A stretch of 64,000 nucleotides of DNA from Escherichia coli (GTDB lineage: Bacteria; Pseudomonadota; Gammaproteobacteria; Enterobacterales; Enterobacteriaceae), in the NCBI RefSeq assembly GCF_013122565.1, contig NZ_CP053258.1, one strand, 5' to 3'. A program made the translations under genes and the position numbers. Positions 6,489 to 9,816 of the stretch are shown piece after piece (position 1 is the stretch's first letter; every line of letters starts with the position of its first letter). Under the pieces are notes generated by a model that saw only the letters and a program-made list of their open reading frames with translations, was not told the origin of the DNA and did not search any database.

Positions 6489-8842
<2,354 letters not shown>

Positions 8843-9130
8843 TTAATTTACTAAACACGGTTTGGTCAGCATAGCATCATGTTGTGCGAATAAACACCTG
8901 CTATTTTAATATTTGTTACAGTGGCTAAACACGCTGACGCAGGGCGGCGAGAAAAAGAGAAGTTACTGGCTGGTGGAGGATTAGGTGGTGAAATAAAAAG
9001 GCCGTTGGGTTACTCTTCAGGCAGTTAAATGGGCATTTCTACACAGATAATGCGATGTTCAGATTCTGTAGACTTATAATGATAGATAATGATCCGTCTA
9101 CAGCATGACAAACAAAAACAGATGCGTTAC

Positions 9131-9159
9131 GGAACTTTACAAAAACGAGACACTCTAAC
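9131..9159 (+). promoter_or_regulatory. Sigma-E-dependent rpoE promoter
   Basis: GGAACTT -35 element, 16-nt spacer, TCTAAC -10 element; matches the sigma-E consensus about 80 bp upstream of rpoE. Confidence 0.75.
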
Positions 9160-9240
9160 CCTTTGCTTGCTCAAATTGCAGCTAATGGAGTGGCGTTTCG
9201 ATAGCGCGTGGAAATTTGGTTTGGGGAGACTTTACCTCGG

Positions 9241-9816
9241 ATGAGCGAGCAGTTAACGGACCAGGTCCTGGTTGAACGGGTCCAGAAGGGAGATCAGAAA
9301 GCCTTTAACTTACTGGTAGTGCGCTATCAGCATAAAGTGGCGAGTCTGGTTTCCCGCTATGTGCCGTCGGGTGATGTTCCCGATGTGGTACAAGAAGCTT
9401 TTATTAAAGCCTATCGTGCGCTGGATTCGTTCCGGGGAGATAGCGCTTTTTATACATGGCTGTATCGGATTGCTGTAAATACAGCGAAAAATTACCTGGT
9501 TGCTCAGGGGCGTCGTCCACCTTCCAGTGATGTGGATGCCATTGAAGCTGAAAACTTCGAAAGTGGCGGCGCGTTGAAAGAAATTTCGAACCCTGAGAAC
9601 TTAATGTTGTCAGAAGAACTGAGACAGATAGTTTTCCGAACTATTGAGTCCCTCCCGGAAGATTTACGCATGGCAATAACCTTGCGGGAGCTGGATGGCC
9701 TGAGCTATGAAGAGATAGCCGCTATCATGGATTGTCCGGTAGGTACGGTGCGTTCACGTATCTTCCGAGCGAGGGAAGCTATTGATAACAAAGTTCAACC
9801 GCTTATCAGGCGTTGA
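9241..9816 (+). CDS. rpoE: RNA polymerase sigma-E factor (sigma-24)
   Basis: ORF track 9208..9816; ATG at 9241 (MSEQLTDQVLVERVQKGDQKAF...) gives 191 aa. Confidence 0.97.
   Translation: MSEQLTDQVLVERVQKGDQKAFNLLVVRYQHKVASLVSRYVPSGDVPDVVQEAFIKAYRALDSFRGDSAFYTWLYRIAVNTAKNYLVAQGRRPPSSDVDAIEAENFESGGALKEISNPENLMLSEELRQIVFRTIESLPEDLRMAITLRELDGLSYEEIAAIMDCPVGTVRSRIFRAREAIDNKVQPLIRR

What the first reader, a model, noticed from the sequence alone, without database searches (positions are those of the whole stretch)
9066..9103. Inverted repeat enclosing a tandem ATAATGAT repeat in the rpoE upstream region
CTGTAGAC (9066-9073) and its exact complement GTCTACAG (9096-9103) flank 22 nt containing two direct copies of ATAATGAT (9076-9083, 9086-9093), about 140 bp upstream of the rpoE ATG and 30 bp upstream of the sigma-E-dependent promoter. 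The arrangement looks like a protein-binding operator or a promoter element sequestered in a hairpin. I cannot assign it to a specific regulator from sequence alone.
Basis: seen in the sequence. Interest (0 to 1): 0.3.

Follow-up and report, generated by a model that had tools for sequence, protein, structure and literature searches.

The report
rpoE P5 promoter and rseD start
The repeat pattern is real, but it is the core of an already mapped internal promoter of the E. coli stress sigma factor gene rpoE, together with the start codon of its annotated leader gene rseD; the one less ordinary point is that the two inverted arms stay complementary across related genera, which suggests a small RNA hairpin.

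Summary
CTGTAGAC (9066-9073) and GTCTACAG (9096-9103) flank two ATAATGAT copies (9076-9083, 9086-9093) in the E. coli nadB-rpoE spacer, which is identical to K-12 here.

- The first copy holds a perfect -10 hexamer, TATAAT (9075-9080). Published 5' ends, the -153 "P5" start and a SMRT-Cappable-seq triphosphate end at MG1655 2710165, fall at A9088, 7 nt downstream.
- The second copy holds GATAAT (9085-9090), with a further capped start at about 9099. It also holds the ATG (9089) of the annotated leader gene rseD. P5 mRNA is therefore essentially leaderless for rseD.
- The right arm is rseD codons 3-5.

No evidence supports a protein operator. The Fur-box resemblance is at background level (11/19). 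The perfect tandem repeat exists only in Escherichia.

The arms are not chance. In 46 distinct Enterobacteriaceae sequences they change sequence but stay complementary. That fits a stem-loop in the longer P1-P4 transcripts better than a sequence-specific operator. The strand and the function are unresolved.

Verdict: known promoter plus known ORF start, with an apparently undescribed conserved stem. Interest is low to moderate.

The parts
9066..9073 (+). Left arm of the inverted repeat (CTGTAGAC); -22 to -15 relative to the P5 start
   Evidence: Complementarity to the right arm is kept across Enterobacteriaceae with compensatory changes.
9096..9103 (+). Right arm of the inverted repeat (GTCTACAG); +9 to +16 of P5 mRNA; lies within rseD codons 3-5 (CGT CTA CAG)
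9056..9061 (+). 5' half of a weaker outer helix (UG-U-UCA), predicted to pair with 9106-9110
   Evidence: RNA folds and duplexfold. Other genera have outer helices of different sequence and register, for example Enterobacter TATCGTG/CGCGATG.
9106..9110 (+). 3' half of the outer helix (UGACA)
9076..9083 (+). Direct repeat copy 1 (ATAATGAT); overlaps the P5 -10 hexamer and an ATG at 9079
9086..9093 (+). Direct repeat copy 2 (ATAATGAT); overlaps the second -10-like hexamer, the P5 start and the rseD ATG
   Evidence: The copy is a perfect match to copy 1 only in Escherichia.
9075..9080 (+). -10 hexamer TATAAT of rpoE promoter P5 (6 of 6 to consensus, no -35 partner)
   Evidence: Present in 15 of 17 Enterobacteriaceae found without bias toward it. 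The best -35 candidate matches at most 3 of 6. Seven nt separate the hexamer from the mapped start.
9088..9088 (+). Transcription start of P5 (published -153; MG1655 2710165, reverse strand), 1 nt before the rseD ATG
   Evidence: Review of Klein 2016 (PMC8103513). SMRT-Cappable-seq Supplementary Data 2 (PMC6131387). Coordinate map.
9085..9090 (+). Second -10-like hexamer GATAAT (5 of 6)
   Evidence: It lies 8 nt upstream of the extra capped 5' end at about 9099.
9099..9099 (+). Additional capped 5' end (MG1655 2710154, reverse strand), inside the right arm
   Evidence: SMRT-Cappable-seq Supplementary Data 2. Position is accurate to about 1 nt.
9089..9244 (+). rseD, the 51-aa rpoE leader peptide; its TGA overlaps the rpoE ATG (ATGA)
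   Evidence: ORF list. RefSeq annotation in E. coli genomes and MG1655 b4725.
9079..9108 (+). Nine-codon ORF from the first ATG (MIDNDPSTA, then stop). This ATG is kept in 40 of 46 distinct sequences, but the ORF end is not conserved.
   Evidence: There is a weak 3-nt periodicity of variability in this frame.
9073..9100 (-). Minus-strand promoter-like arrangement TAGACG-16-TATAAG pointing toward nadB. It uses the complement of the right arm as a -35-like hexamer.
   Evidence: These are the hexamers listed for the nadB direction in a RpoD genomic SELEX table (PMC3946193). No start on that strand appears in the SMRT-Cappable-seq operon list.
9011..9023 (+). P4 -10 (TACTCT 9011-9016) and P4 start (9023/9024; published -218). 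The nearest upstream promoter whose RNA contains both arms.
9131..9165 (+). Sigma-E-dependent promoter P6 (GGAACTT-N16-TCTAA) with its start near 9165; downstream of the element and not part of it

Best explanation
The 38-bp element is three overlapping things in the E. coli rseD-rpoE control region.

(1) DNA level (shown). The two ATAATGAT copies are tandem -10 elements of an internal sigma-70-type promoter. TATAAT (9075-9080) fires at A9088, which is the published promoter P5 at -153. GATAAT (9085-9090) accounts for a second capped start near 9099. There is no usable -35, so this is a -10-only, minor promoter.

(2) Coding level (shown by annotation, with translation inferred). The second copy supplies the ATG (9089) of the leader gene rseD, whose stop overlaps the rpoE ATG. 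P5 mRNA therefore begins 1 nt before that AUG and is effectively leaderless for rseD. The right arm is rseD codons 3-5.

(3) RNA level (inferred). Transcripts from the upstream promoters P1-P4 (P4 starts at 9023) contain both arms. In these the arms pair into an 8-bp stem, extended by a weaker outer helix, that closes a 22-nt AU-rich loop carrying both AUGs. Both arms fall within the region a 30S subunit must occupy at the rseD AUG, and there is no Shine-Dalgarno sequence. The stem most likely limits or tunes initiation at rseD on long transcripts, and through translational coupling part of rpoE translation, or alters their stability. P5 transcripts lack the left arm and escape this.

The arms are not a sequence-specific protein operator.
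For: Identity of the locus.
- The spacer is 100% identical to E. coli genomes, and identical to MG1655 from 8934 to 9245.
- rseD is annotated exactly at 9089-9244.

Promoter.
- A review of Klein et al. 2016 gives rpoE starts at -381, -327, -218, -153 and -75.
- An independent triphosphate-end data set lists rpoE-operon starts at MG1655 2710229/30, 2710165, 2710154 and 2710088. These map to window 9023/4, 9088, 9099 and 9165.
- TATAAT sits 7 nt upstream of 9088.
- GACTTATAATGA is the best-conserved block of the upstream region in 17 Enterobacteriaceae retrieved through RpoE, not through this motif.

Stem.
- Different genera carry different but complementary arms. Examples are GTAGAC/GTCTAC, ACAGAC/GTCTGT, AGCGGA/TCCGCT, CGCGAAA/TTTCGCG, CCACGA/TCGTGG or TTGTGG, and CAACGGGAC/GTCC-AC-CGTTG.
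- On an unfitted MAFFT alignment of 46 distinct sequences, 69% of cells pair, against 27-42% when partners are slid. The covariation score is 0.223 against 0.147 in shuffles (0 of 500 reach it).
- On the model-fitted alignment, 81.5% of cells pair and the score is 0.285 against 0.170. Four of 6 pairs show double-sided changes.
- In every one of the 46 sequences the two flanks pair better than the average shuffled flank (p 0.000-0.23).
- The hairpin is in the minimum-free-energy fold of both the isolated segment and the whole P4 leader.
Against: - RNAalifold finds no consensus structure on the MAFFT alignment.
- The single-sequence z-score is modest: -1.85, with 8 of 200 shuffles folding as well.
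- The innermost pairs (GAC/GTC) are conserved in sequence rather than covarying. Several double changes may trace to few evolutionary events, and the shuffle control ignores phylogeny.
- Sense and antisense strands fold equally well (mean -12.6 against -13.1 kcal/mol, Wilcoxon p 0.32). The data therefore do not show that the sense RNA is the folding species.
- The metagenome sequences were selected for ACTTATAATNA, so loop conservation in that set is circular.
- Full-length rseD starting in the loop exists only in Escherichia, a few unnamed metagenome lineages, Citrobacter and one other lineage. A role in rseD initiation cannot explain stem conservation in Enterobacter or in the unnamed lineage L114.
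- The primary papers (Klein 2016, Yakhnin 2017) could not be read. What they say about P5, its sigma factor or this dyad is unknown to me.
- Leaderless translation of rseD is not demonstrated.
Confidence: 0.6

Rival explanations
1. Dyad operator. A dimeric repressor or activator binds the two arms, 30 bp centre to centre on the same DNA face. It controls P5 by covering its -10 and start site, possibly also reading the 10-bp-phased AATGA repeats.
For: - The arms bracket the -10 and the start, the classic geometry for repression.
- The inner GAC/GTC is conserved in sequence.
- An A-AA-GA motif recurs at a 10-nt offset in most genera, 6 of 8 matches being typical.
- P5 lacks a -35, so it might need a factor.
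Against: - The outer arm positions switch to unrelated but complementary sequences, which a fixed DNA-reading head would not tolerate.
- The arms are 22 bp apart.
- No known motif fits: Fur scores 11 of 19, and 444 sites in the window score as well or better.
- The spacings required for LexA, CRP or QseF (TGT-N12-ACA) are not met, by inspection.
- The accessible reviews name no regulator for P5.
Confidence: 0.1
2. Symmetry of a bidirectional promoter. The -10 region reads TATAAT on the top strand and TATAAG on the bottom strand. The complement of the right arm serves as a -35-like TAGACG for a leftward (nadB-direction, antisense) promoter. The dyad would be a by-product of two opposed promoters.
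For: - TAGACG-16-TATAAG lies on the minus strand at 9100 to 9073.
- A RpoD-holoenzyme genomic SELEX study lists the rpoE/nadB spacer as a binding site. It gives essentially these hexamers (printed as TAGACT-16-TATAAG) for the nadB direction.
- CTTATAAT, not just TATAAT, is conserved.
- From my own knowledge, not checked here: Warman et al. 2021 describe bidirectional promoters that arise from -10 symmetry as common in E. coli.
Against: - No forward-strand start near MG1655 2710186 appears in the SMRT-Cappable-seq operon list, where nadB starts at 2710391. That list only holds transcripts covering a gene, so the absence is weak evidence.
- The left arm has no role in this model, and compensatory changes between arms are not predicted by it.
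- In Enterobacter the -35-like hexamer is only CAGACC.
- The SELEX hexamers are the authors' sequence pick, not a mapped start.
Confidence: 0.1
3. No function for the dyad. The element is just the P5 -10 region and the rseD start. The arms are a chance 8-bp inverted repeat in an AT-rich spacer, and apparent conservation reflects shared ancestry.
For: - 8-bp inverted repeats are frequent, with 99 in this window.
- RNAalifold gives nothing.
- The z-score is modest.
- The shuffle controls do not correct for phylogeny.
Against: - Arms of unrelated sequence remain complementary in at least about 10 distinct arm types.
- All 46 flank-pairing tests fall below p 0.25.
- Slid-partner controls, which keep relatedness, give far lower pairing and covariation.
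- The surrounding spacer between P4 and the element is otherwise poorly conserved.
Confidence: 0.15
4. A conserved mini-ORF. The ATG inside TATAATGA (9079) opens a short leader peptide (M-x-D/E-N-D/E-x-S...). Its translation on long transcripts, from a start codon displayed in the hairpin loop, is the selected feature.
For: - This ATG is present in 40 of 46 distinct sequences.
- Variability at positions +10 to +18 is concentrated at third codon positions of this frame: entropy 1.1-1.6 against 0.2 at second positions.
- In Citrobacter and one other lineage this ATG is the start of the full rseD-like ORF coupled to rpoE.
Against: - Only about three codons show the pattern. The same columns are equally well explained as a second -10-like hexamer (GAnAAT) and the P5 start.
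- ORF length ranges from 9 to 63 codons with no conserved stop.
- There is no Shine-Dalgarno sequence.
- The ATG is fixed anyway by TATAAT plus the selection pattern used.
Confidence: 0.05

Closest known systems
rpoE promoter P5 of E. coli K-12 (Klein et al. 2016, J Biol Chem 291:22999; read only through reviews PMC8103513, PMC6358824 and PMC8745692)
   Same: A start at -153 relative to the rpoE ATG maps to window 9088, 7 nt after TATAAT. An independent capped-5'-end data set finds the same base (MG1655 2710165). The window is identical to K-12 here.
   Different: Nothing differs in sequence. The accessible texts treat P5 as a minor promoter and do not mention the flanking dyad, the tandem -10 copies or the second start at about 9099. 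Whether the primary paper does is unknown.
rseD (ORF51), the rpoE leader peptide translationally coupled to rpoE (Yakhnin et al. 2017, J Bacteriol 199:e00484-17; abstract recalled from my own knowledge, annotation b4725 seen)
   Same: The ORF at 9089-9244 is the annotated rseD. Its ATG is inside repeat copy 2 and its codons 3-5 form the right arm.
   Different: Two points are derived here, not taken from that work. The rseD AUG sits 1 nt after the P5 start, which makes the mRNA leaderless. The AUG also lies in the loop of a conserved stem on longer mRNAs. The full-length ORF is limited to Escherichia, Citrobacter, one other genome lineage and several unnamed metagenome lineages.
Leaderless mRNAs produced by a promoter that starts at or next to the AUG (lambda cI from PRM, Tn1721 tetR; established knowledge)
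   Same: The transcription start is 0-1 nt from an AUG, there is no Shine-Dalgarno sequence, and the same ORF is also present on longer, leadered transcripts from upstream promoters (as cI is from PRE).
   Different: Translation of rseD from the P5 transcript has not been shown. The start leaves a 1-nt leader.
5'-UTR stem-loops that mask or display a translation start (generic cis-regulatory mRNA hairpins)
   Same: A stem conserved by compensatory change encloses start codons, and both arms lie within the ribosome footprint.
   Different: The loop is large (22 nt), the stem is short, there is no Rfam family, and no ligand, sRNA or protein partner is known. The loop sequence doubles as a DNA promoter element.
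Fur box (GATAATGATAATCATTATC; established consensus)
   Same: It shares the words GATAAT and ATAATGAT.
   Different: The best match is 11 of 19, a score reached or exceeded at 444 sites in the 64-kb window. The match is not conserved in other genera.

Membership tests
Sigma-70-type promoter (rpoE P5) | -10 hexamer close to TATAAT | tested here: met
   TATAAT at 9075-9080, 6 of 6. Kept in 15 of 17 Enterobacteriaceae retrieved independently of it.
Sigma-70-type promoter (rpoE P5) | -35 hexamer close to TTGACA, 16-18 bp upstream | tested here: not met
   The best candidates match 0-2 of 6 at spacers 15-18, and 3 of 6 at spacer 19. The consensus scan finds no full promoter. There is no TG extended -10. 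This is a -10-only promoter.
Sigma-70-type promoter (rpoE P5) | Primary (triphosphate) 5' end 5-9 nt downstream of the -10 | tested here: met
   The published -153 start and the SMRT-Cappable-seq start at 2710165 both map to 9088, 7 nt after the hexamer. This was tested by mapping literature data onto the sequence, not by experiment.
Sigma-70-type promoter (rpoE P5) | Dependence on the sigma-70 holoenzyme | not testable with these tools
   A RpoD holoenzyme SELEX peak lies in the spacer but is not resolved to this site. The sigma assignment for P5 in Klein 2016 could not be read.
Dyad-symmetric protein operator | Half-site sequence conserved among relatives | tested here: not met
   Only the inner GAC/GTC is conserved. 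The outer 3-5 positions change to unrelated complementary sequences.
Dyad-symmetric protein operator | Match to a known regulator's motif | tested here: not met
   Fur scores 11 of 19, which is background. The QseF spacing TGT-N12-ACA is absent. The LexA and CRP spacings are absent by inspection.
Dyad-symmetric protein operator | Protein footprint or shift | not testable with these tools
   No binding data for this segment appear in the accessible papers.
Conserved cis-acting RNA stem-loop in a 5' UTR | Both arms present on one natural transcript | tested here: met
   P4 starts at 9023/4, and P1-P3 start further upstream. These sense transcripts include 9056-9110.
Conserved cis-acting RNA stem-loop in a 5' UTR | Base pairs maintained by compensatory substitutions | tested here: met
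   Four of 6 pairs (fitted alignment) or 6 of 8 pairs (MAFFT alignment) show double-sided changes. Covariation scores are 0.285 against 0.170 and 0.223 against 0.147, with 0 of 500 shuffles reaching them. Slid controls score lower. Caveat: this is not a phylogeny-aware test.
Conserved cis-acting RNA stem-loop in a 5' UTR | Thermodynamic stability above shuffled background | tested here: inconclusive
   The E. coli z-score is -1.85. Flank-pairing p values are 0.000-0.23 in 46 sequences. RNAalifold finds no consensus.
Conserved cis-acting RNA stem-loop in a 5' UTR | Strand specificity (G-U tolerated, A-C not) | tested here: inconclusive
   Sense and antisense fold equally well, with 53 against 67 G-U pairs.
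Conserved cis-acting RNA stem-loop in a 5' UTR | Membership of a curated RNA family | tested here: not met
   No Rfam match at or near its gathering score was found at E up to 10.
Leaderless mRNA | Transcription start at or within a few nt of the AUG, with no Shine-Dalgarno sequence | tested here: met
   The start is at 9088 and the rseD AUG at 9089.
Leaderless mRNA | Translation initiates on the 5'-terminal AUG | not testable with these tools
   This needs toeprinting or reporter fusions.
Intrinsic terminator | GC-rich stem, short loop, U tract | tested here: not met
   The scan finds none in 8800-9260. The loop is 22 nt and the downstream tract is A-rich.
Bidirectional promoter | Opposed -10 elements and a start on each strand | tested here: inconclusive
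   The minus strand carries TAGACG-16-TATAAG. No minus-strand (nadB-direction) start appears in the one accessible list, which cannot detect short antisense RNAs.

The most novel reading that the evidence does not exclude
The dyad is a conserved RNA stem-loop of the long (P1-P4) rpoE leader, and its loop doubles, at the DNA level, as an internal promoter. Promoter choice would then decide how the leader ORF is initiated. On long transcripts the start is structured and lacks a Shine-Dalgarno sequence. On P5 transcripts, which lack the left arm, initiation is leaderless. This would add a promoter-specific translational layer to sigma-E synthesis through rseD-rpoE coupling. In genera without full-length rseD, the same stem would serve another role in the leader, such as stability, Rho access or a mini-ORF.
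Probability: 0.25. Interest if true: 0.45.

Novelty: already known. Interest (0 to 1): 0.25.

Why it matters
rpoE encodes the essential envelope-stress sigma factor of E. coli, and its synthesis is controlled at many levels. Placing this repeat pattern on the mapped P5 promoter and the rseD start removes it as a mystery. It also removes any need for an unknown regulator.

Two points may be worth a specialist's attention. First, P5 starts 1 nt before the rseD AUG. Second, the flanking arms are kept complementary across Enterobacteriaceae. If the stem acts in the long leaders, it links promoter choice (the RpoS-, RpoN/QseF- and RcsB-driven upstream promoters against P5 and sigma-E-driven P6) to how efficiently rseD, and through coupling rpoE, is translated. 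That would be a modest refinement of a well-studied circuit, not a new kind of system.

Tried and rejected
- **Fur box.** The words GATAATGAT suggested Fur. The best match is 11 of 19, with 337 sites in the window scoring the same and 107 scoring higher, and it is not conserved elsewhere. Rejected.
- **QseF enhancer site** (TGT-N12-ACA). The arms give TGT-N30-ACA. Rejected by spacing.
- **Known RNA family.** The Rfam scan at E up to 10 gave only noise.
- **Intrinsic terminator or full sigma-70 consensus promoter.** None was found.
- **Sense-strand RNA proven by G-U pairs.** My first reading of individual sequences suggested this. A paired sense/antisense comparison showed no asymmetry, so the claim was dropped.
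- **RNAalifold consensus.** It returned an empty structure on the MAFFT alignment. Register shifts and the 22-nt loop defeat it, so I relied on explicit pair counts and per-sequence flank pairing instead.
- **rseD coding constraint as the reason for right-arm conservation.** Rejected, because the long ORF is absent in most genera that keep the stem.
- **Primary papers.** Klein 2016 and Yakhnin 2017 are not held.
- **Other start-site data.** Supplements of the Cappable-seq and E. coli/Klebsiella start-site papers held no rows for this locus.
- **Element outside Enterobacteriaceae.** No covariance-model hit in 14 non-Enterobacteriaceae Enterobacterales loci, including Pantoea, Serratia, Rahnella, Edwardsiella, Morganella, Photorhabdus and Xenorhabdus.
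Full report
**Locus.** The window around the finding is the E. coli nadB-rpoE spacer.
- nadB is on the minus strand (7211-8833).
- rpoE starts at ATG 9241 and ends at 9816, followed by rseA, rseB, rseC and lepA.
- The 408-bp spacer is 100% identical to an O157:H7 genome and is present once in 5425 of 5426 complete E. coli genomes.
- From 8934 to 9245 it is base-for-base identical to K-12 MG1655 with no indels. K-12 literature coordinates therefore transfer directly: MG1655 position = 2710012 - (window position - 9241).

**Observation.**
- The arms are CTGTAGAC (9066-9073) and GTCTACAG (9096-9103), 22 nt apart.
- ATAATGAT occurs at 9076-9083 and 9086-9093.
- The dyad extends imperfectly to 9063-9083 / 9086-9106, 16 of 21.

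As bare sequence statistics it is only mildly unusual.
- The window holds 99 perfect 8-bp inverted repeats with loops of 3-40 nt, against about 46 in simulations.
- An inverted repeat enclosing an 8-nt direct repeat occurs only here, with 0.05 expected per window.

**What the loop is at the DNA level.** A review summarising Klein et al. 2016 gives six rpoE promoters, with starts at -381 (P1), -327 (P2 and P3), -218 (P4), -153 (P5) and -75 (P6, sigma-E dependent).
- -153 is window 9088, the A directly before ATG 9089.
- An independent data set that enriches triphosphate 5' ends (SMRT-Cappable-seq, Supplementary Data 2) lists starts for the rpoE operon on the reverse strand. They are at 2710229/2710230, 2710165, 2710154 and 2710088, which map to window 9024/9023, 9088, 9099 and 9165.
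- P4, P5 and P6 are thus reproduced to the base or within 1 nt. The end at 9088 is a primary start, not a processing product.
- TATAAT (9075-9080) lies 7 nt upstream of 9088 and is a perfect -10 hexamer.
- GATAAT in the second repeat copy (9085-9090) lies 8 nt upstream of the additional start at about 9099.
- No acceptable -35 exists for either hexamer, with at most 3 of 6 matches. These are -10-only starts, which fits P5 not being listed among the major promoters.

The tandem ATAATGAT repeat is therefore best read as two -10 regions 10 bp apart, giving two starts 11 nt apart.

**What the loop is at the coding level.** The ORF 9089-9244 is annotated in RefSeq as rseD, the rpoE leader peptide (b4725 in MG1655).
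- Its ATG is inside repeat copy 2.
- Its codons 3-5 (CGT CTA CAG) contain the right arm.
- Its TGA overlaps the rpoE ATG.
- P5 mRNA begins 1 nt before that AUG and there is no Shine-Dalgarno sequence upstream. P5 mRNA is therefore effectively leaderless for rseD. This follows from the coordinates; translation itself was not tested.
- The rseD start lies upstream of the sigma-E P6 start (9165). The main stress-induced transcript cannot encode full-length RseD.

**Conservation.** RpoE was used to fetch loci from one genome per species.
- In the 17 Enterobacteriaceae obtained, GACTTATAATGA is the best-conserved block between the P4 -10 (conserved GTTACTCT) and the sigma-E promoter.
- Fourteen other Enterobacterales lack the element by eye and by covariance-model search. 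They include Pantoea, Serratia, Rahnella, Tatumella, Edwardsiella, Morganella, Photorhabdus and Xenorhabdus.
- A DNA-pattern scan of metagenome contigs, anchored on the -10 block and the sigma-E -35 and leaving the arms free, added variants. Together these gave 46 distinct sequences.
- Within E. coli the 70 nt around the element are identical in 5398 of 5425 genomes.

**The arms.** The arms are not conserved as sequence but as a pair.
- Escherichia, Citrobacter and related unnamed metagenome lineages (for example L160): GTAGAC/GTCTAC.
- Enterobacter: ACAGAC/GTCTGT or CAGAC/GTCTG, plus a 7-bp outer helix TATCGTG/CGCGATG.
- Other lineages: AGCGGA/TCCGCT, CGCGAAA/TTTCGCG, and CCACGA/TCGTGG with a TTGTGG variant.
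- The unnamed metagenome lineage L114: CAACGGGAC/GTCC-AC-CGTTG.
- Another lineage: GTTTGCAGA/TTTTGCGAAC.

Three counts support pairing.
- On the unfitted MAFFT alignment, the 8 E. coli pairs are formed in 69% of cells, against 27-42% when partners are slid. The covariation score is 0.223 against 0.147 in shuffles (0 of 500 as high) and at most 0.106 when slid.
- After realignment to a covariance model with the inner 6 pairs, 81.5% of cells pair and the score is 0.285 against 0.170. Pair types include CG 22 / UA 13 / UG 2, and AU 33 / GC 5 / GU 4 / CG 1.
- A register-free test, pairing the 21 nt left of the -10 block with the 28 nt right of it against shuffles of the right flank, gives p between 0.000 and 0.23 in all 46 sequences.

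I conclude that complementarity is under selection.

There are limits to this conclusion.
- RNAalifold returns no consensus.
- The single-sequence z-score is -1.85.
- The inner GAC/GTC does not covary.
- The shuffle control ignores phylogeny.
- The metagenome set was selected on the loop sequence.

**Which molecule folds.** Compensatory change argues against a sequence-reading protein and for nucleic-acid pairing.
- The only documented RNAs carrying both arms are the sense transcripts from P1-P4. In the P4 leader the hairpin spans +34 to +88 and is part of the minimum-free-energy fold.
- I first thought that G-U pairs proved a sense-strand RNA. A paired comparison shows sense and antisense fold equally well, so that argument was withdrawn.
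- The RNA reading is the most plausible but is not demonstrated.

**Likely mechanism (inferred).** On long transcripts the left arm lies at -23 to -16 and the right arm at +8 to +15 relative to the rseD AUG. Both lie inside the region a 30S subunit covers.
- With no Shine-Dalgarno sequence, the stem should restrain or tune initiation at rseD. Through the ATGA overlap it would also affect part of rpoE translation.
- P5 transcripts lack the left arm and present the AUG at the 5' end.
- This cannot be the whole story. A long rseD ORF starting in the loop exists only in Escherichia and the unnamed metagenome lineages L146 and L160 (second AUG), and in Citrobacter and one other lineage (first AUG). 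Enterobacter, the unnamed lineage L114 and others keep the stem but have only 7-34-codon ORFs.
- A role in leader stability, Rho access or a mini-ORF is equally open. A weak 3-nt periodicity in the frame of the first AUG is noted but is equally explained by the second -10-like hexamer.

**Rivals.**
- Operator: not supported. The half-sites are not conserved, the tandem repeat is perfect only in Escherichia and 4-7 of 8 elsewhere, and Fur resemblance is at background.
- Bidirectional promoter: the minus strand reads TAGACG-16-TATAAG within the dyad. Essentially these hexamers (printed as TAGACT-16-TATAAG) are listed for the nadB direction in a RpoD SELEX table. No start on that strand is in the accessible list, and the model does not predict covariation.
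- Chance: unlikely given.

**Novelty.** The promoter (P5) and the ORF (rseD) are published and annotated, so the feature as flagged is already known. I could not read the two primary papers. I therefore cannot say whether they describe the dyad, the second start or the leaderless arrangement; none of the reviews I could read mentions them. The conserved stem is, at most, a new member of a familiar kind, a 5'-leader hairpin around a start codon.

**Verdict.** The mechanism is known for the promoter and ORF part and inferred for the stem. Interest is 0.25.

Noticed in passing
window 8838-8859 and 8912-8933 (also TAAACA at 8892-8897): Two copies of a 22-nt repeat carry TGTTTA-N6-TAAACA (8840-8857) and TGTTAC-N6-TAAACA (8914-8931). 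From my own knowledge these look like NadR operator boxes for the divergent nadB gene.
   Followed up: partly
window 8860-8862: The published nadB start (MG1655 2710391, window 8862 on the minus strand) lies 2 nt from rpoE P1 (-381, window 8860). The two genes appear to start back to back.
   Followed up: partly
window 9033-9053: A second small hairpin (GCAUUUCU-acac-AGAuAAUGC) lies 10 nt after the P4 start. The TTTCT...AGAAA dyad recurs in Enterobacter, Citrobacter and other genera, so the P4 leader may carry two conserved stem-loops.
   Followed up: partly
window 9045-9052: A third copy of AGATAATG, identical to 9084-9091, gives another GATAAT -10-like hexamer at 9046-9051. No start is listed downstream of it.
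   Followed up: no
window 9010-9017: GTTACTCT, containing the likely P4 -10 (TACTCT, 6 nt before the 9023 start), is almost invariant in Enterobacteriaceae. It is also present in several Pantoea loci.
   Followed up: partly
window 9108-9120: An A-rich tract (ACAAACAAAAACA) directly upstream of the sigma-E -35 GGAACTT (9131-9137) is highly conserved. It may be an UP-like element of P6 rather than part of the hairpin.
   Followed up: no
window 9089 versus 9165, and ATG 9185: The rseD start codon lies 76 nt upstream of the sigma-E-dependent P6 start. P6 mRNA therefore cannot encode the 51-aa RseD. The only in-frame AUG on it (9185) would give a 19-aa peptide (MEWRFDSAWKFGLGRLYLG) that still ends in the ATGA overlap.
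   Followed up: partly
L021 and L024 (Rahnella, Serratia), about 150-165 nt upstream of rpoE: At the position corresponding to the E. coli element, these Yersiniaceae have a different short hairpin (CCGTG-N7-CACGG in Rahnella; an imperfect version in Serratia), with no TATAAT in the loop. It follows a conserved CATGTTAGCCTAA block.
   Followed up: no
L135 (metagenome E. coli-like contig): In this variant the spacing between the -10 block and the rpoE ATG is 2 nt shorter (164 against 166 nt). The rseD frame therefore runs past the rpoE ATG, giving 75 codons. This is either a natural variant that breaks the ATGA coupling or an assembly error.
   Followed up: no
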